Of a stretch of 16,616 bases of DNA, positions 747 through 9,452 are shown piece by piece. Each line of letters opens with the position of its first letter. Positions within the stretch are counted from its first letter, which is position 1. The position numbers and the translations under genes are program-made. A model generated the notes under the pieces. It had not been told where the DNA came from. It saw nothing but the letters and a program-made list of their open reading frames with translations, and ran no database searches. Source of the stretch: a virus; UHGV virus genome UHGV-0224311. One strand, given 5' to 3'.

Positions 747-1180
747 GCAAAGTAACCGCGATTATCTCCGCTCTGGTTATCTGCATCATCGTTTGCCTGT
801 CATGGGCTGTTAATCATTACCGTGATAACGCCATCGCCTACAAAGAACAGCGCGATAAAGCCACATCCACAATCGCTGACATGCAGAAGCGTCAACGTGA
901 TGTAGCAGAACTCGACGCAAGATATACAAAGGAACTTGCTGATGCTAACGCGACTATCGAAAGTCTCCGTGCTGATGTTTCTGCTGGGCGTAAGCGCCTG
1001 CAAGTCGCCGCCACCTGTGCAAAGTCAACGACCGGAGCCAGCAGCATGGGCGATGGAGAAAGCCCAAGACTTACAGCAGATGCTGAACTCAATTATTACC
1101 GTCTCAGAAGTGGAATCGACAGGATAACCGCGCAGGTTAACTACCTGCAGGAATACATCAGGACGCAATGCCTTCGATGA
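743..1180 (+). CDS. Rz: Spanin inner-membrane subunit (i-spanin) Rz
   Basis: The 145-aa product has a lambda-Rz-like N-terminal transmembrane segment ([30 protein letters not shown]), then a diverged coiled-coil periplasmic region ending in QC-R. Its start is coupled to the R stop, and Rz1 is embedded in the +1 frame. Confidence 0.88.
942..1127 (+). CDS. Rz1: Spanin outer-membrane lipoprotein subunit (o-spanin) Rz1, wholly embedded in Rz in another frame
   Basis: An ATG at 942 is preceded by AAGGA (928-932). The product [36 protein letters not shown]... has a lipoprotein signal peptide with lipobox V-S-A-C and a proline-rich mature part, as in lambda Rz1. The listed ORF start at 936 is a TTG; the ATG at 942 is preferred. 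Confidence 0.75.
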
Positions 1181-1353
1181 TAGCGATAATTTTACTCATC
1201 ATCCTTCATATCTGGCTCTGTAGACAGAGTGGTGATCACTTCTGGAGTAAATCCAGATTAAACATCTCATTGCTGATGCTTGATATTGAGCATCTGGCGC
1301 GCGGTAAGGGGCTGCGTTGAGATAAGAGCCATTCATCACAAACACCAGGATTT

Positions 1354-1379
1354 AGCCCCGCATTCGCGGGGCTTTTTTA
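1354..1379 (+). terminator. Rho-independent terminator downstream of the lysis cassette
   Basis: Perfect 8-bp GC-rich stem agccccgc / gcggggct with a 4-nt loop (attc), followed directly by tttttt. Confidence 0.6.
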
Positions 1380-1523
1380 CATCTGCAGTAAACCGCGCAT
1401 CGCAGCGCGTAACAATCCCGAGTCTTTCAGAAAGCTGAGCCTGAGAACTGCCGTATATGGTGGCGACCATCTCGGGGCGGCTTTTCTGTGCGAACAGGCT
1501 CATCTTTCTAAAAGGTAAACGCT

Positions 1524-2009
1524 ATGAATAACTTTGTTGAAATTACCTCAAGAATTGGTCGCATGTACCAAGATTTTCTTATAAGTGGAAAGGGGTCTGG
1601 CGACATCATAGAGGAAATTGACAAGCTAAGTGCAGAGCTGAGAAGGAATGGGTGTGTTAATTCTATCTTTTTTGAAACGTTGCTAAAGCAAGGCTTCATG
1701 TTTGACATGATTAATTACAACAAAGTCGCACCCAGTGCTTCGCAAAAATCATATGTGTACGTTCTGCATGCTGAAGATAGTGGGCTAACAAAAATAGGGT
1801 TTAGTCGCAGGGTTAATAAACGGATTTCAGAGATATCTCGCATGAGTGGTGGGAAGCTAAATCTAATTGCAAAGATTCCGGCCGATAGAGAGCTTGAAAC
1901 CAAATTGCACCAAAAATATTACAACTATAGGTCGCACGGGGAGTGGTTTAGTCTCAATCGTTGTCATTTGAAAGAGCTAAAAGAAATGCCTGGTAACGAA
2001 CTGAAATAA
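1524..2009 (+). CDS. Accessory (moron) protein of 161 aa: N-terminal region of unknown function plus C-terminal T5orf172 / GIY-YIG-like predicted nuclease domain
   Basis: ATG at 1524 with AAAGG 8 nt upstream. The C-terminal half carries YVYVLHAEDSGLTKIGFSRRVNKRISEISR ... KLHQKYYNYRSHGEWFSL, which fits the T5orf172 (GIY-YIG-like) pattern as I recall it (YVYVL...KIG...R...E...H...GEWF). The gene is visibly AT-rich with frequent AGA/AGG/ATA codons, unlike its neighbours. Confidence 0.7.
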   Translation: MNNFVEITSRIGRMYQDFLISGKGSGDIIEEIDKLSAELRRNGCVNSIFFETLLKQGFMFDMINYNKVAPSASQKSYVYVLHAEDSGLTKIGFSRRVNKRISEISRMSGGKLNLIAKIPADRELETKLHQKYYNYRSHGEWFSLNRCHLKELKEMPGNELK

Positions 2010-2256
2010 TCCCCGGACTCACTAATTAACGGCAGTACAGCGAAACAACCCAAGCCAGTAAGTGGGGAAATAACACTGGCAGCCACTGAAAGATGAACCT
2101 CCAGCCTTATGGCAAAAAAGATTCTTTGTGGTGGCGGACTGATGGAAAGACATCGGTTATTGCAGAGGCCATTCAATGAGTGGTCTCGACAATGGCTTAT
2201 ACCCTACACGGGATAACTTAACTGATATCCCTTTTAACGGATAAACGGAGCCAACA

Positions 2257-2499
2257 ATGGCAGAGATTATTCCCATGACTGAAGAACAGAAATTCCAGTT
2301 AGAGATTTACAAGCTGGTCATGAACCAGAACGCAGCCGCAGAGGAAGCGTTTCAATTCATTGGCACTGACGAGCTGAAGCTTGAGCTATTCAAAATTCAC
2401 TTCCAGTCAGGTGGCGCTAATTCAGATATCACGATCCGCACATTCGAAGCGGTGCGTAAATCGAAGGAAGCGTTAGACCTGTTCACTACCGGAGCATGA
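2257..2499 (+). CDS. Small acidic hypothetical protein of 80 aa immediately upstream of terS, resembling the P22 orf80 position
   Basis: ATG at 2257 preceded by GGAG. Codon usage matches the phage backbone. The size and the position just upstream of the small terminase gene match the conserved small ORF of P22-like late operons. Confidence 0.7.
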   Translation: MAEIIPMTEEQKFQLEIYKLVMNQNAAAEEAFQFIGTDELKLELFKIHFQSGGANSDITIRTFEAVRKSKEALDLFTTGA

Positions 2500-2534
2500 T
2501 GCTCAACCTGAAATAACAACTAAGTGAGATGAAT

Positions 2535-3023
2535 ATGGCAGCACCAAAGGGCAACCGATTTTGGGAGGCCCGCAGTAGTCATGGGCGAAATCCTAAATTC
2601 GAATCGCCTGAGGAGCTGTGGGCTGCTTGTTGTGAATACTTCGAGTGGGTTGAAGCTAACCCGCTATGGGAGATGAAGGCGTTCTCGTATCAGGGTGAAG
2701 TGATACAAGAGCCTATCGCCAAGATGCGAGCGATGACCATTACCGGCCTCACTCTGTTCATTGATGTGACGCTTGAAACATGGCGCACGTATCGCCTGCG
2801 AGAAGATTTATCTGAAGTCGTTACGCGAGCAGAGCAGGTCATCTACGACCAGAAATTCTCTGGCGCAGCCGCTGACCTTCTCAACGCTAACATCATCGCC
2901 CGTGATTTGGGCCTCAAAGAGCAGTCGCAAGTTGAAGACGTGACACCTGATAAGGGAGATCGCGATAAGCGGCGCTCTCGTATCAAGGAGCTATTCAACC
3001 GTGGAACTGGACGCGATTCTTGA
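2535..3023 (+). CDS. 3: Terminase small subunit, P22 gp3-type
   Basis: Product [47 protein letters not shown]... is recognised as P22 gp3-like at 162 aa. The ATG at 2535 is preferred over the listed 2529 because it reproduces the gp3 N-terminus. The 3' end overlaps terL by 23 nt. Confidence 0.9.
2803..2824 (+). other. pac: Candidate P22-type pac site (headful packaging initiation site) inside terS
   Basis: The sequence aagatttatctgaagtcgttac lies within terS, encoding ...[11 protein letters not shown].... From memory it matches the asymmetric ~22-bp P22 pac site that lies inside gene 3. Not verified by alignment. Confidence 0.5.
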
Positions 3024-4503
3024 TAACCTGAGCGACGAAGAGCAAATCGAATTGCTCGAGCTACTCGAAGAAGAAGAAAACTACCGGAACACACACCTGC
3101 TATATGAATTTACGCCATACAGCAAACAGCGTGAGTTCATCGACGCCGGGCATGACTATCCAGAGCGCTGTTTTATGGCTGGTAACCAGCTTGGTAAGTC
3201 ATTTACTGGTGCTGCTGAAGTCGCGTTTCACCTTACCGGGCGTTACCCGGGAACAAAAGGCTATCCGGCTGATGGTAAATATGGTGGGGAGTGGAAAGGT
3301 AAGCGTTTCTATGAGCCTGTTGTCTTCTGGATTGGCGGCGAGACAAACGAGACTGTAACCAAAACGACTCAACGCATCCTGTGCGGTCGTATCGAAGAGA
3401 ATGACGAGCCGGGCTACGGTTCCATACCGAAAGAGGACATCATTAGCTGGAAGAAGTCTCCTTTCTTTCCGAACCTTGTTGATCACCTTCTGGTTAAGCA
3501 TCACACGGCTGATGGCGTTGAAGATGGCATTTCAATCTGCTACTTCAAGCCATACTCGCAAGGCCGTGCTCGCTGGCAGGGTGACACAATCCACGGCGTG
3601 TGGTTTGACGAAGAGCCACCATACAGCATTTATGGCGAAGGTCTTACCCGTACCAACAAATACGGGCAATTCTCAATTCTGACGTTTACCCCGCTGATGG
3701 GGATGTCTGACGTTGTTACCAAGTTCCTGAAGAACCCCAGCAAGTCGCAGAAAGTGGTCAACATGACCATCTATGACGCTGAGCACTATACCGACGAGCA
3801 GAAAGAGCAAATCATCGCATCCTATCCAGAGCATGAGAGAGAGGCGCGTGCTCGCGGTATTCCTACGATGGGTAGCGGTCGAATCTTCCAGATACCGGAA
3901 GAGACGATTAAGTGTCAGCCGTTCGAGTGTCCGGATCACTTCTACGTAATTGGCGGGATGGATTTCGGATGGGATCACCCTCAGGCGCAGGTTCAGCTTT
4001 GGTGGGATAAGGACGCAGACACAATCTACGTTTCACGCGTGTGGAAGGCGAAAGAAAAAACAGCCGTTCAGGCGTGGGGAGCCGTTAAATCATGGGCGCA
4101 TAAAGTGCCAACAGCATGGCCTCATGACGGAAACCAGCATGAGAAGGGCGGCGGTGAGCAGCTCAAAGGGCAGTATGCAGACGCTGGTTTTATGATGTTG
4201 CAGGAGCATGCGACATGGCCTGATGGCGGTAATGCTGTTGAGCCTGGAATCACTGAATTGCGCGACATGATGCTTGATGGTCGCTTCAAAGTATTCAACA
4301 CCTGTGAGCCATTCTTTGAGGAGTTCCGCCTCTATCACCGTGATGAAAACGGGAAAATCGTCAAGCTTAACGACGACGTGCTATCCGCCGTTCGCTATGC
4401 ATACATGATGCGCCGCTTCGCCAAAATGATGCGCGACATCAAAAAACCAAAAGAGAAAAAGATACCAGCCCCAATCAGGCCCATCGCACGGTCAACAAGA
4501 TAG
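3001..4503 (+). CDS. 2: Terminase large subunit, P22 gp2-type
   Basis: The 500-aa product starts [37 protein letters not shown], recognised as P22 gp2. It carries an ATPase Walker A-like GNQLGKS and C-terminal nuclease-fold acidic motifs. Confidence 0.95.
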
Positions 4504-4512
4504 ATACTGTTG

Positions 4513-5013
4513 TTACGGCTTGAGAAATTCAGAGGCAGCGGAATTCAGAGCGTTAATAAATGCTACCTTATGCTTGTATGCATCTAATGCTGTAGCGAAT
4601 CCGCTTTTTGTGTATTTCTTGCCTTCTACCACAAATTGCCACATGTAGTTATTTGTGTCCTTGCGATAGGAAACTCCTTTGTATCCAGTTGAATTGTCGC
4701 AATCCATGCCACGGTTTAGTCCGTTCAACTGCTTATTGGCATCTCTAAGATTACAGATGCGGTTATCAGCACGGTTTCCGTTTATGTGATCTACTGCTTC
4801 GGGCCAGTAACCATAGTAGTGCGCAAAACAAATTCTGTGCACGTAGTACAGTTTTTTACCAAGCCTTACATCAAGGTATCCGTTTCCATGCTGGCACCCA
4901 ACGGGCTTGCCGTTAAGGTCTGTCCTCCTTGTGCGATTAGCCGCGTACAAAATTCCGGTTTCAGCATCGTATGTGAAATTTTTCCTTATATCTTCTATAG
5001 ATGGATGGCTCAC
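4513..5013 (-). CDS. Free-standing HNH homing endonuclease with C-terminal AP2-type DNA-binding domain
   Basis: Minus-strand ORF of 166 aa with a GTG start at 5013 preceded by AGGAG. It carries an HNH motif (HRICFAHYYGYWPEAVDHINGNRADNRICNLR) and an AP2-like segment (GYKGVSYRKDTNNYMWQFVVEGKKYTKSGFATALDAYKHKV). The gene is AT-rich and antisense to the operon, placed between terL and portal. Confidence 0.85.
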   Translation of the reverse strand: MSHPSIEDIRKNFTYDAETGILYAANRTRRTDLNGKPVGCQHGNGYLDVRLGKKLYYVHRICFAHYYGYWPEAVDHINGNRADNRICNLRDANKQLNGLNRGMDCDNSTGYKGVSYRKDTNNYMWQFVVEGKKYTKSGFATALDAYKHKVAFINALNSAASEFLKP

Positions 5014-5063
5014 AATAGAATCTCCTGTTGAAGTTGTCCCATTGATTTTATCACGGTAAAGTT

Positions 5064-7232
5064 ATGACTGACAACGCAGAGCGATTAAATAAGATACTGC
5101 AAGCATTCGATGTTGATTGGATGTCTTCCGACGAGGCGAGAACAGAAGCTTCTAACGATTTATACTTCAGTCGCATAAGCCAATGGGATGACTGGCTATC
5201 AAACTACACCACCCTGCAATATCGCGGACAATTCGATGTTGTTCGCCCGGTGGTCAGGAAACTGGTCGCAGAGATGCGCCGGAACCCTATCGACGTACTC
5301 TTCCGACCCAAAGACGGCGCTAATCCTGATGCTGCCGATGTGTTGATGGGAATGTATCGTACTGATATGCGCCATAACACGGCAAAGATTGCCGTTAACG
5401 TTGGCGTTCGTGAGCAGATAGAGTCCGGCGTTGGTGCATGGCGTCTGGTCACCCAGTACGAAGACAACGACCCAACAAGCAACAATCAGGTAATCCGACG
5501 CCTGCCAATCCATGAAGCCTGCTCACACGTCATATGGGACGCCAACAGCAAGCAGATGGATAAGAGCGACGCTAAGCACTGCACGGTGATTAACGCTTTG
5601 TCACGCAATGGCTGGAAAGAGTTCGCAGAGGATTACGGTATTGATCCGGACACCTTGCCATCTTTCCAGAATCCGAACGATACATGGCTGTTTCCGTGGG
5701 TATCGAATGATGTCGTCTACGTTGCTGAGTATTACGAGGTAGAAGAGAAGAAGGAGAAGGTCTTCATCTACCGCGACCCGCTGACAGGTGAGCCGGTCAG
5801 CTATTACCAGCAGGATATCAAAGACGTCATCGACGACCTGGCTAATCGTGGATTCATTAAGGTAGCAGAGCGTAAGGTCAAGCGTCGGCGTGTGTATAAG
5901 TCGATCGTCACCTGCACGCAGATACTGAAAGACCGCGAGAAGATAGCCGGAGAGCATATCCCAATCGTTCCTGTGTACGGCGAATGGTCATTCGCTGGTG
6001 ACAAGGAGTGCTACGAGGGCGTGGTAAGGCTGACGAAAGACGGTCAACGCCTTCGTAACATGATCATGTCATTCAACGCCGATATTGTTGCTCGTTCACC
6101 GAAGAAGAAACCGACCTTCTTCCCTGAGCAAATCGAAGGCTACGAATACATGTACGGTGGAAATGATGACTATCCGTACTATCTCCAGAACAGGACTGAT
6201 GAAAACGGTAACGACCTGCCGATTGGTCCAATCTCCTACATGGAAAACCCTGAAGTGCCGCAAGCCAACGCTTACATGCTTGAGGCTGCCACCAACGCAG
6301 TGAAAGAGGTGGCCAGTCTTGGCGTTGATGCGCAGGCGGCAAATGGTCAGGTCGCTTTCGATACCGTCAATCAACTGAACATGCGGGCAGACCTTGAGAC
6401 ATACGTGTTTCAGGATAACCTGGCTACCGCAATGCGACGTGATGGCGAGATTTATGCCTCAATGGTCAACGATATTTATGACGTTCCTCGTCATGTAACG
6501 CTGACACTTGAAGATGGAAGCGAGAAAGACGTTCAACTCTACGCGCAAGTTGTAGATTACCAGTCCGGTAATGTGGTCACACTCAACGACATTCGCGGTC
6601 GCTATGAGTGCTATACAGACGTTGGGCCATCCTTCCAGAGCATGAAGGAACAGAACCGCGCAGAGATTCAGGAATTGCTCACTAAGGTTCCGCAAGGTAC
6701 TCCAGAGTTCCAGATGCTGATGCTGCAATACTTCACGCTGCTTGACGGTAAAGGCGTCGAGATGATGCGAGAGTACGCTAACAAGCAACTGGTGATGATG
6801 GGGCTGAAGAAACCAGAAACACCTGAAGAGATGGAGATGGTACAGCAGGCTCAACAGCAGCCGCAGCAGCCATCAGCAGAGCAAATTCAGGCGCAGGGTA
6901 TCCTTCTGCAAGGTCAGGCTGAATTGCTCAAGGCAGAGAACCAACAGGCGCAGATTCAGGTTGAAGCCGCCAAGGTTGAAGCCCAAAACCAACTCAACGC
7001 CGCGAAGATTGCAGAAATCTTCAACAATATGGACCTCGACAAGCAGGCAGAACTGCGTGAGTACCTCAAGCTCGTAGGTCAATTACAGCAACAGCGCAGC
7101 AAAGATGCTCGTGCTAACGCTGAGCTGCTTCTTAAAGATGCAGACCAGACTCATTCACAACGCATTGATTTCGCGAATCTTATGCGTCAAGTTCAAATCC
7201 CCTCCGGCGGAGTAGCCGAGACACCTCAATAA
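5064..7232 (+). CDS. 1: Portal protein, P22 gp1-type
   Basis: The 722-aa product has conserved blocks recognised from the P22 portal ([28 protein letters not shown]; [23 protein letters not shown]; [15 protein letters not shown]). The C-terminus is a Gln-rich predicted coiled coil. Confidence 0.95.
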
Positions 7233-7245
7233 GAGAGAGTTAATC

Positions 7246-8157
7246 ATGGACCAAACCACCGACATTCAGGCTTCTGAAGAATTAACCCTGCCCGGCAATC
7301 ATGCAGCGGCATCTGCTGATGGCTTAGTTGTCGATAATGCCAACGACAGCGCAGGTCAGGAAGAAGGCTTTGAGATTGTCCTGAAAGACGATGAGAAACC
7401 AAAACAAGACCCGGCAACTAATGCTGAATTTGCCCGTCGCCGCATCGAACGCAAACGCCAGCGTGAGCTTGAGCAGCAGATGGAGGCGGTTAAGCGTGGA
7501 GAGTTGCCGGAGCACCTGCGGGTGAACCCTGAGTTACCGAAACAACCAGACCCTAACGATTATCTTTCCGAAGATGCACTGGCTAAGTACGACTATGACC
7601 AGAGCCGCGCACTGGCTGCCTTCCAGCAGGCAAACAGTGAATGGCAGATCAAGGCTATGGACGCACGAAGCCAGGCTGTCGCCGAGCAGGGGCGCAAAAC
7701 TCAGGAGTTCACCCAGCAATCAGCGCAATACGTCGAGGCAGCCCGTAAGCACTACGACGCAGCGGAAAAGCTCAATATCCCTGACTATCAGGAGAAAGAG
7801 GACGCATTCATGCAACTTGTGCCGCCAGCAGTCGGTGCCGACATCATGCGCCTCTTCCCGGAGAAATCCGCTGCTCTCATGTATCACCTTGGTGCTAATC
7901 CTGAGAAAACACGCCAGTTGCTGGCGATGGACGGGCAATCCGCGCTGATTGAACTCACTCGACTGTCAGAACGTTTAACTCTCAAGCCTCGAGCAAAGCC
8001 TGTTTCAGAAGCCCCGTTACCTGATGAACCCATTCAGGGACATGCTGTTGCTGCAAATATCTCTGCGATTGAAAAGCAGATGGAGGCGGCAGCAAACAAA
8101 GGGGATGTAGAGACGTACCGCAAGCTCAAGGCGCAACTGAATAAAGGAATTCGATAA
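7246..8157 (+). CDS. 8: Scaffolding protein, P22 gp8-type
   Basis: The 303-aa product is recognised as gp8-like ([50 protein letters not shown] ... [18 protein letters not shown]). RBS GAGAG upstream; its stop overlaps the coat start (TAATG). Confidence 0.93.
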
Positions 8158-9452
8158 TGGCATTAAATGAAGGTCAACTGGTCACGTATGCTCTGGATGA
8201 AATCATCGAAACCGTCCAGAACCTGACGCCAATGGCGTCCAAAGTGACAAAATACACCCCTCCGGCAGAATCCATGCAGCGTTCAAGCAACACCGTGTGG
8301 ATGCCTGTTGAGCAGGAAGCGCCAACTCAGACTGGCTGGGATTTAACTGGCAACGCAACCGGGATTCTGGAGCTGTCCGTGAAATGCAACATGGGCGATC
8401 CGGATAACGATTTCTTCGAGCTTCGTGCAGATGACCTGCGTGATGAGCGTTCTTACCGTCGCCGCATCCAGGCATCCGCCAAAAAACTGGCGAATAACAT
8501 TGAGTCAGCAATTGCCAAACAGGCAACTGAAATGGGCTCGCTTGTTGTTCACGATACCCGCGCAATTGGTCCATCTACTGGCCTGTCTGGCTGGGATTTT
8601 GTGTCTGATGCAGAGCGCCTGATGTTCTCCCGTGAGCTAAACCGCGATATGGGCATCAGTTACTTCCTGAACCCTGACGATTACCGCAAAGCAGGCCGCA
8701 ACCTGGTAGATGGTGACATCTTTGGGCGCGTTCCTGAAGAAGCGTATCGCAACGGTACTATTCAGCGTCAGATTGCTGGCTTTGATGAAATTCTTCGCTC
8801 ACCGAAACTTCCTGCAGTTACCAAGTCAACCGCTACTGGTGTAACTGTGACTGGAGCGCAGAAGTTTAAGCCGCAGGCATACACCCTTGATACCGATGGT
8901 AACAAGGAGAACGTCGACAACCGTGTTGCAACGGTGACCGTATCCTCCACCACCGGGTTTAAGCGCGGCGACAAAATCAGCTTCACTGGTGTGAAATTCC
9001 TGTCTCAGATGGCGAAGAACGTGCTGACTGATGATGCAACTTTCTCAATCACCCGTGTGATCGATAGTACTCACATCGAAATCACGCCGAAGCCGATTGC
9101 GCTGGATGACGCGTCACTGACAAAAGAAGAGAAGGCTTACGCTAACGTAAACACCTCTCTTGCTAATACCACTCCGGTAAACGTTCTGAACGTGGCAACA
9201 ACCACCGCTAACGTGTTCTGGGCTGATGACTCAATCCGTCTGCTGTCTCAGCCGATCCCGGTAACCCATGAACTGTTTGCTGGCATGAAAACGTCTTCCT
9301 TCAGCATTCCTGGCATTGGTGTTAACGGCATCTTCGCAACGCAGGGTGATATCAACACTCTGTCTGGTAAGTGCCGTATTGCTGTGTGGTATTCAGCATG
9401 TGCTGTACGACCAGAGGCAATTGGTGTTGGTCTGCCTAACCAGACTGCGTGA
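8157..9452 (+). CDS. 5: Major capsid (coat) protein, P22 gp5-type
   Basis: The 431-aa product is recognised as P22 coat-like ([20 protein letters not shown]...; NPDDYRKAG; [29 protein letters not shown]). Confidence 0.95.

What the first reader, a model, noticed from the sequence alone, without database searches (positions are those of the whole stretch)
1381..2256. AT-rich accessory gene encoding a T5orf172 / GIY-YIG-like protein between lysis and packaging genes: candidate single-gene defence or exclusion module
The gene at 1524-2009 follows a strong terminator and has its own RBS. It is far more AT-rich than its neighbours (by eye roughly 40% G+C against about 50%; not computed) and uses AGA, AGG and ATA codons that the backbone genes avoid. 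Together these mark a recently acquired accessory gene. Its C-terminal half fits the T5orf172 GIY-YIG-like predicted nuclease pattern; the N-terminal ~75 residues match nothing I recognise. The slot between Rz and terS is variable in P22-like phages, and prophage-encoded nuclease-domain proteins at such loci often act in superinfection exclusion or anti-phage defence. A selfish homing-type nuclease is the main alternative. The architecture (unknown N-terminal domain plus T5orf172) is not one I can tie to a characterised system.
Basis: partly seen in the sequence, partly recalled or inferred. Interest (0 to 1): 0.85.

Follow-up and report, generated by a model that had tools for sequence, protein, structure and literature searches.

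The report
RNA-gated phage nuclease cassette, not defence
This is a swappable accessory gene of P22-like phages that encodes a small GIY-YIG nuclease fused to a helper domain borrowed from a neighbouring phage gene family; it lies behind a conserved RNA hairpin that hides its ribosome-binding site, so it looks like a tightly controlled weapon or selfish element of the lytic cycle, not a prophage immunity gene.

Summary
ORF 1524-2009 (161 aa) follows a strong terminator, is the lowest-GC stretch of the window (39.3% vs 50.5%), over-uses AGA/AGG/ATA/CTA, and passes the Pfam thresholds for MUG113 and T5orf172. A model of the domain matches SLX1, I-TevI and PD-T4-3, and Tyr79/Arg100/Glu140 are conserved.

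The gene is already public: it is identical to epsilon34 gp68, which RefSeq names "GIY-YIG nuclease family protein". No function has been tested.

Three things are new:
- **N-terminal domain.** The "unknown" N-terminus is homologous to HK620 HkbL (phrog_875), a small protein that follows KilA-N genes in this same slot.
- **Exchangeable slot.** The slot carries GIY-YIG, KilA-N, Rha or Tad2-like genes, or is empty, between conserved flanks.
- **Structured leader.** The 5' flank is a conserved RNA hairpin (1423-1515) that pairs the Shine-Dalgarno sequence. Covariation is strong (23 of 28 pairs; 0 of 500 shuffles reach it). It corresponds to the published P22 small RNA P22F, and the 3' flank corresponds to P22G.

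The defence reading is poorly supported: there is no promoter, the RBS is sequestered, the gene is co-oriented with the late operon, and there is no defence-system HMM match. The best reading is a late-expressed chimeric nuclease, homing-like or Odn-like. This is a new variant of a known kind, of moderate interest.

The parts
1354..1379 (+). Intrinsic terminator after Rz and the small ORF 1168-1320 (stem 1354-1373 plus T-run). It forms the left edge of the slot in several comparators.
   Evidence: Annotated as a rho-independent terminator in epsilon34 and HK106. Homology to HZ41 ends at 1377.
1394..1409 (+). Small hairpin CGCGC-N6-GCGCG in the leader, with apparent compensatory changes in the Klebsiella and Duffyella versions. 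Not tested formally.
   Evidence: Alignment A7; MFE fold.
1420..1526 (+). Conserved structured leader RNA, of the same family as P22 sncRNA 'P22F'. The long hairpin spans 1423-1515. The lower stem pairs UCUUU (1423-1427) with the Shine-Dalgarno AAAGG (1511-1515). A 7-nt asymmetric loop GUGCGAA lies at 1488-1494. The element ends at the start codon.
   Evidence: Fold z = -2.5. Ten of 11 divergent homologs fold the same way; all 11 have z between -1.8 and -4.3. CM R1 hits sit directly upstream of the first slot gene. Covariation: 97.9% of cells paired, 23/28 pairs changed on both sides, 0/500 shuffles reach this, slid controls 43-54%. No frame is open across variants. No Rfam family. P22F reported in PMC13397905.
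1524..2009 (+). Accessory gene encoding a 161-aa protein, identical to epsilon34 gp68 / g341c gp64 (phrog_4284).
1524..1733 (+). N-terminal three-helix domain (residues 1-70), HkbL-like (phrog_875). Net charge about zero; conserved Y15, L39, G43, G57.
   Evidence: AF2 helices 3-21, 25-41, 47-68. phrog_875 E = 1.4e-6. A profile search of 1.84e9 proteins gave only 21 hits, including stand-alone 86-107-aa proteins. BLASTP to P0122: 32% identity, E = 4e-11. HkbL position in HK620.
1752..1985 (+). GIY-YIG-fold nuclease domain (T5orf172/MUG113; residues 77-154). Putative catalytic residues: Tyr79 (1758-1760), Arg100 (1821-1823), Glu140 (1941-1943). Also conserved: K90-I-G92, E125, H129, R136, H138.
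2010..2256 (+). Conserved non-coding 3' flank of the slot. 2007-2172 is homologous to P22 sncRNA 'P22G'. All comparators rejoin the window within 2007-2031.
   Evidence: Right junctions: 2007 (P22), 2019/2020 (HZ41, HK106, HK620, HK022), 2029 (IME10, E212), and 2029-2031 (empty-slot L020: blastn 2029, alignment 2031), at 94-98% identity. 98.2% identity to P22G. Fold z = -3.6, 0/200 shuffles.
2257..2499 (+). DUF2560 gene (HK620 hkbM / P22 ORF80 homolog). It is the conserved right neighbour and travels with the cassette in most loci.
   Evidence: Pfam E = 2.6e-42. Homology tracts end at ~2494-2501 in most viral loci.

Best explanation
Window 1381-2256 is one allele of an exchangeable accessory slot at the lysis-packaging junction of lambdoid late operons. 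The layout is: terminator, about 95 nt of structured leader RNA, variable gene(s), then a conserved structured 3' non-coding RNA. The gene in this allele encodes a chimeric nuclease. An HkbL-like three-helix domain, native to this locus where it normally follows a KilA-N gene, replaces its basic tail with a catalytically intact T5orf172/MUG113 GIY-YIG domain. The gene has no promoter of its own, so it is transcribed only as part of the Q-antiterminated late transcript. Its translation is held down, or made conditional, by the leader hairpin that pairs the Shine-Dalgarno sequence. I infer that the protein cuts DNA during lytic growth. The N-terminal domain would supply partner or target selection, as in the ICP1 chimeric T5orf172 nuclease Odn. 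The payoff would be selfish or competitive: cutting co-resident or co-infecting related phage, prophage or satellite DNA that lacks the cassette, which stimulates recombination at the conserved flanks (homing-like spread or marker exclusion). It is not an immunity function expressed by the lysogen. Shown here: anatomy, homologies, fold, conserved catalytic residues, slot exchange, RNA structure and covariation. Inferred: nuclease activity, timing of expression, the target, and the fitness role.

For: Chimera: the N-domain matches phrog_875/HkbL. HkbL lies in the same slot after KilA-N in HK620, HK022 and L021.

Precedent: Odn is an N-terminal captured DNA-binding domain plus a C-terminal T5orf172 domain, with catalytic Arg and Glu retained (PMC8263062).

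Position: T5orf172 homing endonuclease genes are most often in terminase neighbourhoods (35%), and the tape-measure gene is among those frequently interrupted by homing endonucleases (PMC10448857). This family sits at the lysis/terminase junction in at least 5 phage backbones, or next to tail/tape-measure genes.

Mobility: the protein is 99-100% identical across about 30 viral contigs with different backbones and terminase types. It is present in 56 of 5,426 E. coli genomes while the flanks occur in 2,658. An empty-slot allele exists.

Decay: dead or decayed alleles exist, namely E140G in P0019 and the fusions and frameshifts P0005, P0014, P0035 and P0038. This fits the life cycle of a selfish element.

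Late, gated expression: no promoter, upstream terminator, SD-sequestering covarying hairpin. The P22 homolog of the leader is an RNA seen only in infected cells.
Against: There is no precise homing footprint. Homology tracts end at sequences shared by many lambdoid phages: the Rz end, the leader, 2007-2031, about 2154-2178 and the DUF2560 end. Ordinary mosaic recombination explains this without a nuclease.

The N-domain is a neutral helical bundle. It has none of the Zn-finger DNA-binding repeats found in 87% of T5orf172 homing endonucleases (Pfam finds none). Sequence-specific DNA targeting is therefore unproven.

The slot is usually occupied by another gene and is rarely empty, which is unlike a classical presence/absence homing site.

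No target site has been identified, and nuclease activity and expression timing are untested. A widespread natural E140G allele could also mean that the function does not need catalysis.
Confidence: 0.4

Rival explanations
1. Prophage-encoded single-gene defence or superinfection exclusion. The lysogen would express the nuclease, which would cut incoming phage DNA, as PD-T4-3 does.
Against: No promoter. A terminator lies immediately upstream. The RBS is buried in a conserved hairpin. The gene is co-oriented within the late operon. No PADLOC model of an established system matches it. Sister phages carry phage-offence genes such as Tad2-like in the same slot. The RNA from the homologous leader is detected only during infection.
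Confidence: 0.12
2. Late-phase counter-defence or takeover nuclease. It would degrade host, plasmid or satellite (PICI/P4-like) DNA, or cleave a host defence component's nucleic acid, to protect packaging. This would be analogous to ICP1 Odn acting against PLE.
For: The slot holds anti-defence genes in relatives: Tad2-like in HZ41 and IME10. The Klebsiella member is followed by an overlapping non-specific Endonuclease_NS gene. The Odn precedent applies. The position immediately upstream of terS/terL, the genes that satellites hijack, also fits.
Against: No known target. The N-domain comes from a phage protein (HkbL), not from a recognisable satellite or host protein. The gene is rare (about 1% of E. 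coli genomes) and often decayed. That pattern suits a selfish element better than a generally useful counter-defence.
Confidence: 0.2
3. Regulatory or antirepressor-type module. The protein would be a functional equivalent of the KilA-N/Rha(+HkbL) cassettes it replaces. It would work mainly through the HkbL-like domain, by binding a partner protein or DNA. The GIY-YIG domain would act as a nucleic-acid-binding or domesticated module, like PLE CapR.
For: It is mutually exclusive with KilA-N and Rha cassettes behind the same leader RNA. In tail islands it overlaps an upstream Rha gene or precedes a KilA-N gene, amid Arc/Bro-N antirepressor genes. The natural E140G allele is widespread (P0019, 114 member sequences). 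CapR is a domesticated relative of T5orf172 endonucleases (PMC8096241 and PMC10448857).
Against: The full catalytic constellation is invariant or nearly invariant across 60 diverse homologs, which argues that catalysis is selected. No DNA-binding motif was detected in the N-domain, whose net charge is about zero.
Confidence: 0.15

Closest known systems
ICP1 Gp88 / Odn (origin-directed nuclease; T5orf172 chimera), PMC8263062
   Same: Both have a C-terminal T5orf172 GIY-YIG domain with Arg and Glu retained. Both have an N-terminal domain captured from another protein of the same conflict locus. Both are single genes carried by the phage in an accessory locus, and Odn's neighbours are rha-like/bro_N gene pairs.
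   Different: Odn's N-domain is a RepA_N DNA-binding domain with a known target, the PLE origin. Here the N-domain is a 70-aa neutral helical bundle (HkbL-like) with no known ligand. Odn belongs to a lytic vibriophage, whereas this gene sits in temperate lambdoid late operons behind a structured leader.
Free-standing T5orf172 homing endonuclease genes (Barth, Dunham & Seed 2023, PMC10448857) and T4 Seg / I-TevI GIY-YIG homing endonucleases
   Same: The nuclease fold and motifs are shared. It is a free-standing gene next to terminase or tape-measure genes. Its distribution is sporadic, its GC is low, and it sits at the boundary of exchanged segments.
   Different: It lacks the CapR/DUF723/DUF4397 Zn-finger repeats or I-TevI-type DNA-binding modules. 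At 161 aa it is much smaller. No homing site or co-conversion gradient was demonstrated. The alternative alleles carry other genes and are rarely empty.
HK620 HkbK/HkbL cassette (KilA-N-ORF11CD3 plus an 85-aa protein, phrog_875) and P22 ORF201 (Rha-ORF11CD3)
   Same: The slot, leader RNA and 3' flank are the same. The N-terminal domain is homologous to HkbL.
   Different: HkbL ends in a short, highly basic tail where this protein has a nuclease domain. No KilA-N or Rha gene accompanies it here.
PD-T4-3 (E. coli GIY-YIG defence nuclease; PDB 9u75)
   Different: There is no sequence-level match and its PADLOC model is not hit. The architecture and genomic context are different.
P22 sncRNAs P22F and P22G (PMC13397905, 2026)
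   Same: P22F is the P22 copy of the leader hairpin. P22G is the conserved 3' flank, 98% identical to window 2007-2172.
   Different: The paper lists them as small RNAs of unknown function. It does not describe the covarying structure, SD sequestration, or the association with an exchangeable KilA-N/Rha/GIY-YIG slot across lambdoid phages, all of which were derived here.

Membership tests
GIY-YIG nuclease superfamily | Three-stranded beta-sheet/alpha-helix GIY-YIG fold | tested here: met
GIY-YIG nuclease superfamily | Conserved catalytic Tyr (GIY), Arg (helix 1) and metal-binding Glu | tested here: met
   Y79 and R100 are invariant, and E140 (in HGEWF) is nearly invariant, in the 26- and 60-sequence alignments. 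Assignment of roles is by motif order, not by superposition.
GIY-YIG nuclease superfamily | Mg2+-dependent DNA cleavage | not testable with these tools
   Needs biochemistry.
Pfam T5orf172 (PF10544) / MUG113 (PF13455) | HMM score above the gathering threshold | tested here: met
   MUG113 50.1 bits (cut-off 22.3); T5orf172 39.2 bits (cut-off 20).
T5orf172 homing endonuclease genes (sensu Barth et al. 2023) | Associated sequence-specific DNA-binding module (CapR/DUF723/DUF4397 Zn-finger repeats in 87% of cases) | tested here: not met
   Pfam finds no domain other than the nuclease domain at E <= 10. The N-domain is an all-helical bundle with no CxxC motifs. The custom CapR HMM was not available.
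T5orf172 homing endonuclease genes (sensu Barth et al. 2023) | Free-standing gene adjacent to essential genes (terminase, tape measure) with sporadic presence among close relatives | tested here: met
T5orf172 homing endonuclease genes (sensu Barth et al. 2023) | Cleavage of the cassette-less allele and biased inheritance (homing) | not testable with these tools
   Breakpoints coincide with generally conserved linkers, so sequence alone is inconclusive.
Known anti-phage defence systems (PADLOC-DB v2) | Significant match to a model of an established system | tested here: not met
   Only PDC-S57 (a candidate, E = 4e-4, covering just 79 of 212 profile positions, i.e. the nuclease domain) and PDC-M64B (E = 0.034).
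Moron (independently expressed insert in a phage operon) | Own promoter and own terminator | tested here: not met
   No sigma-70-like promoter in 1100-2600 under strict or relaxed rules. No terminator downstream of the gene. The only terminator lies upstream. Other promoter types are not covered by the scans.
Moron (independently expressed insert in a phage operon) | Atypical composition and presence/absence among relatives | tested here: met
HkbL-like proteins (phrog_875) | Homology of the ~70-aa helical domain | tested here: met
   phrog_875 E = 1.4e-6 over residues 2-60. Profile hits to P0122-P0126 and P0131 at E = 1e-12 to 8e-7. BLASTP E = 4e-11.
P22F-type leader RNA (defined here; no Rfam family) | Full-length covariance-model match directly upstream of the first slot gene, with covarying helices | tested here: met
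   Window 1420-1526 scores 115.8 bits, but this sequence was used to build the model. Independent divergent hits: P22, HK022, L014, L021, L051/53, L062. Covariation statistics; the alignment is model-fitted, which inflates pairing somewhat, but alignment-free folds agree.

The most novel reading that the evidence does not exclude
The lysis-packaging junction of lambdoid phages is a dedicated, RNA-bracketed 'weapon slot'. A previously unrecognised family of covarying leader RNAs (P22F-type) makes translation of toxic DNA-targeting cargo (KilA-N, Rha or the GIY-YIG chimera) conditional, for example on RNase III processing or on a phage or host trigger. The HkbL::T5orf172 fusion would then be an Odn-like guided nuclease that uses the HkbL domain to find rival lambdoid phages or satellites, for example those whose KilA-N/HkbL system or DNA site it recognises. 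That would be a new mode of phage-versus-phage interference encoded in about half of E. coli genomes' prophage flanks.
Probability: 0.2. Interest if true: 0.8.

Novelty: new variant of a known kind. Interest (0 to 1): 0.5.

Why it matters
The gene itself is an uncharacterised member of a known nuclease family. If it stood alone it would be a routine 'hypothetical GIY-YIG' annotation.

The context raises its value. Pieces of the slot's flanks occur in about half of complete E. coli genomes. The slot exchanges KilA-N, Rha, Tad2-like and nuclease genes. At least the KilA-N, Rha and nuclease cargoes share one strongly covarying leader RNA that hides the ribosome-binding site. That gives a concrete, testable handle on three questions:
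- How do temperate phages keep toxic late accessory genes in check?
- What do the long-mysterious KilA-N/Rha/HkbL cassettes do?
- What are the newly reported P22 small RNAs P22F and P22G for?

The HkbL::T5orf172 fusion parallels the Odn story in ICP1. It suggests that domain capture by T5orf172 nucleases is a general route to new specificities in phage conflicts.

Tried and rejected
- A profile search against PDB sequences found no relative.
- NCBIfam gave no hit.
- Rfam gave no family at gathering thresholds, and only a chance-level AbsR28 hit (E = 0.75) at permissive thresholds.
- RNAalifold on a MAFFT alignment of all 15 divergent leaders lost the helix because of register errors. I replaced it with alignment-free folding and a CM-guided alignment.
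- The first CM alignment (A11) was contaminated by weak reverse-strand hits and was discarded.
- 'HEG island' idea, with GIY-YIG and the HNH gene at 4513-5013 bracketing terS/terL as a mobile unit: rejected. The HNH gene occurs in only 2 of 5,426 E. coli genomes. The one of those two examined in detail has an empty GIY-YIG slot, and GIY-YIG-positive prophages lack the HNH gene.
- The idea that the leader is conserved because of the minus-strand ORF 1336-1503 or plus-strand ORF 1280-1438: rejected. No frame is open across variants, and the G-U pairs are strand-specific.
- The epsilon34 genome paper does not discuss gene 68.
- Literature searches for hkbK/hkbL and for ORF11CD3 found no functional work.
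Full report
**1. The observation**

The window is the late operon of a P22-like phage or prophage. It runs holin, lysozyme, Rz, the slot, DUF2560, terS (GP3_package), terL, portal, scaffold, coat, and head-completion and injection proteins.

ORF 1524-2009 (+) encodes 161 aa. It lies 150 nt downstream of a strong intrinsic terminator at 1354-1373.

Its composition is foreign:
- G+C is 39.3% against 50.5% for the window, and the lowest-GC 486-nt window of all 16.6 kb lies on this gene.
- AGA/AGG supply 6 of 11 Arg codons against 11% in the backbone (p = 8e-4).
- ATA supplies 4 of 13 Ile codons against 9% (p = 0.03).
- CTA supplies 6 of 15 Leu codons against 5%.

Pfam places residues 77-154 in MUG113 (E = 4e-13) and T5orf172 (E = 1e-9), both well above their gathering scores.

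**2. The gene is already public but uncharacterised**

The identical protein is gp68 of Salmonella phage epsilon34, gp64 of g341c, and a hypothetical protein of NM-3. RefSeq names it "GIY-YIG nuclease family protein". It belongs to phrog_4284, of unknown function. The epsilon34 genome paper does not discuss it.

About 30 viral contigs encode a 99-100% identical protein. Fifty-six of 5,426 complete E. coli genomes carry the cassette, while 2,658 carry pieces of its flanks.

**3. The nuclease domain**

A 26-member full-length family (epsilon34-type, HK106-type at about 31% identity, and more distant members) has these positions invariant: Y79, K90-I-G92, R100, E125, H129, R136, H138-G139 and W141-F142. 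E140 is nearly invariant. The same positions are invariant or nearly so in 60 broader T5orf172 homologs.

The full-length AlphaFold model (pLDDT 89) has a three-helix N-domain (residues 3-68) and a beta-beta-alpha-beta-alpha-beta-alpha core. Whole-model fold searches were uninformative.

- then R.Eco29kI, UvrC and T4 EndoII

No solved structure is detectable by sequence.

**4. The N-terminal domain is not an orphan**

PHROGs matches residues 2-60 to phrog_875. A profile of the N-domain, searched against 1.84 billion representative proteins, finds only 21 proteins. These are the 161-aa family plus stand-alone proteins of 86-107 aa, which consist of the same helical domain followed by a very basic tail. 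Pairwise BLASTP gives 32% identity over 66 residues, E = 4e-11.

The stand-alone proteins are HK620 HkbL and its homologs in HK022, HK97, mEp phages, Stx phages and Klebsiella phages. They are encoded immediately downstream of a KilA-N gene whose C-terminal domain is ORF11CD3 or P63C; in HK620 and L021 the two ORFs overlap. This is the same Rz-to-DUF2560/terS slot.

The window protein is therefore a chimera: a locus-native HkbL-like domain fused to a T5orf172 nuclease domain. The domain is electrically neutral and its conserved positions are mostly hydrophobic or Gly. It looks more like an interaction or oligomerisation module than a classical DNA-binding domain. It is unlike the Zn-finger repeats of most T5orf172 homing endonucleases.

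**5. The slot**

BLAST of window 1100-2600 against comparators shows gene-sized replacement between conserved flanks.

| Comparator | Homology to the window stops at | Resumes at | Slot content |
|---|---|---|---|
| E212 | 1530 (6 nt into the ORF) | 2029 | KilA-N-ORF11CD3 |
| HK620 | 1528 | 2020 | hkbK + hkbL |
| HK106 (HK97-like siphovirus) | 1528 (81% identity) | 2020 | a 31%-identical GIY-YIG paralog |
| P22 | 1171 (the Rz end) | 2007 (the stop codon) | Rha-ORF11CD3 (ORF201) |
| HZ41, IME10 | 1377 (HZ41), 1173 (IME10) | 2019 (HZ41), 2029 (IME10) | Tad2-like anti-Thoeris genes |
| E. coli prophage L020 | about 1331-1342 | 2029-2031 | empty (lacks about 1331-2030) |

Among about 30 loci with the identical gene, homology tracts end at about 1145, 1366, about 2154-2208 or about 2497, and the downstream terminase types differ. 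L038 combines an HK620-type leader with the epsilon34-type gene.

This is typical lambdoid mosaicism at conserved linkers. It is compatible with nuclease-stimulated exchange but does not prove it.

Divergent family members keep the lysis/terminase position in at least five backbones: P22-like, HK97-like, a Duffyella prophage, a Klebsiella prophage and the P0031 type. Others sit in tail-gene islands beside Arc, Bro-N, Rha, KilA-N and Imm_superinfect genes. All are co-oriented with the late genes.

**6. A conserved structured leader RNA**

The 150 nt between the terminator and the ATG are conserved at 65-97% DNA identity upstream of unrelated first genes.

- The window sequence folds into a long hairpin (1423-1515) with z = -2.5.
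- Folded independently, 10 of 11 divergent homologs adopt the same architecture (z -1.8 to -4.3): a lower stem, a 6-7-nt purine-rich asymmetric 3' loop, upper stems and an apical region. The HK022 MFE fold differs. In 7 of the 11 the lower stem pairs the Shine-Dalgarno AAAGG/UAAGG; in L062 it is partly paired.
- A covariance model built from five sequences finds full-length plus-strand matches ending at the start codon in every lysis/terminase-junction GIY-YIG locus, and in HK620, E212, HK022, L021 and P22. It finds none in the Tad2-like, empty or tail-island loci.

On 31 distinct sequences:

| Measure | Observed | Shuffled | Partners slid |
|---|---|---|---|
| Cells paired | 97.9% | 82.0 +/- 0.7% | 43-54% |
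| Pairs changed on both sides (of 28) | 23 | 13.3 | 2-7 |
| Double-change cells | 123 | 26.7 +/- 4.2 | 3-14 |

None of 500 shuffles reaches the observed values on any measure.

The alignment is fitted to the model, which inflates pairing. The alignment-free folds and the size of the effect make the structure convincing all the same. Frequent G-U pairs on the plus strand, and the absence of any frame open across variants, point to a sense-strand RNA element. No Rfam family matches.

A June 2026 paper lists a P22 small RNA, P22F: 89 nt, with its 3' end 6 nt from the rha start, and of no known function. Its sequence lies exactly inside the P22 hit of the model. The same paper's P22G is 98.2% identical to window 2007-2172, the conserved 3' flank, which itself folds with z = -3.6. 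Both RNAs were seen only in infected cells.

The asymmetric-loop hairpin resembles phage RNase III processing sites. That is an inference from general knowledge and was not tested.

**7. What this implies for function**

There is no sigma-70 promoter between the terminator and the gene, under strict or relaxed rules. Transcription therefore has to come from the Q-antiterminated late transcript. Translation is attenuated or conditional because the SD is paired.

This is the opposite of what is expected for a lysogen-expressed immunity gene. PADLOC gives only a weak, domain-level hit to an unvalidated candidate.

The conserved catalytic constellation argues for a working nuclease. The nearest functional precedent is ICP1 Odn: a T5orf172 nuclease whose N-terminal domain was captured from its target's replication protein, and whose locus also contains rha-like/bro_N gene pairs. 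Barth et al. report that T5orf172 homing endonuclease genes cluster by terminase genes, and they list the tape-measure gene among those frequently interrupted by homing endonucleases. Those are the two neighbourhoods where this family sits.

Rarity, near-identity across different backbones and frequent decay fit a selfish or competitive element. The decayed alleles are E140G in the widespread P0019 allele, and fusions with Rz or DUF2560 and frameshifts.

I therefore favour a late-expressed, RNA-gated, chimeric nuclease acting on rival or co-resident DNA, either homing-like or Odn-like (confidence about 0.4).

**8. Verdict**

The protein is a new architectural variant of a known nuclease family and is already in the databases without a function. 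The added value lies in three things: the identification of the N-domain, the definition of the exchangeable slot, and the covarying SD-sequestering leader that links to the published but unexplained P22F and P22G RNAs. Interest is moderate (0.5).

Noticed in passing
window 4513-5013 (-): An HNH_3 endonuclease gene (166 aa, Pfam E = 2e-13, GC 43.5%, rich in AGA/AGG/ATA) is inserted on the opposite strand between terL (3001-4503) and portal (5064-7232). It is absent from the closest phages (IME10, HZ41, APC_JM3.2 and others) and present in only 2 of 5,426 complete E. coli genomes. It is probably a free-standing homing endonuclease gene. It is independent of the GIY-YIG gene.
   Followed up: partly
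L020 (E. coli 19451123 prophage) 8679-9194 (-): The same prophage that shares the terL|portal HNH gene carries a second HNH gene between the scaffold and coat genes, and its GIY-YIG slot is empty.
   Followed up: no
window 2007-2256; P22 AF217253 21,873-22,076: The conserved 3' flank of the slot is 94-98% identical across P22-like podoviruses and HK97/HK022-like siphoviruses. It folds much better than shuffles (z = -3.6) and corresponds to the published P22 small RNA P22G. It is too conserved for a covariation test, and its function is unknown.
   Followed up: partly
L005 (P22) 1752-1858 vs annotated ORF201 start at 1787: The P22 copy of the leader RNA (P22F) overlaps the first ~23 codons of ORF201 (Rha) as annotated. 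The element ends at an internal ATG (L005 ~1856), and the Rha Pfam domain starts at residue 48. The annotated ORF201 start is probably too far upstream.
   Followed up: partly
L007 (HZ41) 1902-2381; L004 (IME10) 1759-2259: In these close relatives the same slot holds a Tad2-like (PF11195, Thoeris anti-defence) gene. It lacks the P22F-type leader. IME10 also carries an Sf6 gp66-like gene (PF13876) there.
   Followed up: partly
window 1394-1409: A small GC hairpin (CGCGC-N6-GCGCG) lies between the terminator and the main leader hairpin. Compensatory changes are apparent in Klebsiella (CGCAC/GTGCG) and Duffyella (GCGCC/GGCGC). It was not included in the covariance model.
   Followed up: no
P0019 (Salmonella; 114 member sequences), P0005, P0014, P0035, P0038: Natural variants of the family include a widespread allele with the catalytic Glu replaced by Gly (HGGWF), in-frame fusions to DUF2560 or to the Rz N-terminus, and frameshifted N-domain-only remnants.
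   Followed up: partly
L014 (Klebsiella variicola prophage) 5001-6187: The GIY-YIG homolog is followed by a non-specific DNA/RNA endonuclease gene (Endonuclease_NS, E = 3e-38) that overlaps it. So two nucleases lie in tandem between the lysis and packaging genes.
   Followed up: no
L011-L013 (metagenome) 2538-5918; L010 (Oceanisphaera) 5001-9327: Distant family members sit in tail-gene islands between the tail chaperone and the tape-measure gene, together with Arc-type repressors, Bro-N, Rha, KilA-N-P63C and an Imm_superinfect gene. One overlaps the upstream Rha gene by 4 nt. None has a P22F-type leader.
   Followed up: partly
window 1168-1320 (+): A small hydrophobic ORF of 50 aa ([18 protein letters not shown]...) overlaps the Rz stop. 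It is conserved and annotated in epsilon34 (gp67), Sf6 (gp65) and E. coli prophages. No Pfam family matches, and it may be a small membrane protein of the lysis cassette.
   Followed up: no
L019 = NZ_CP026085.1 1452967-1465968: An assembly labelled E. coli DH5alpha (4.83 Mb) carries a complete P22-like prophage with this gene at 99.1% identity. That is unexpected for DH5alpha and suggests a mislabelled strain or a lysogenised stock.
   Followed up: no
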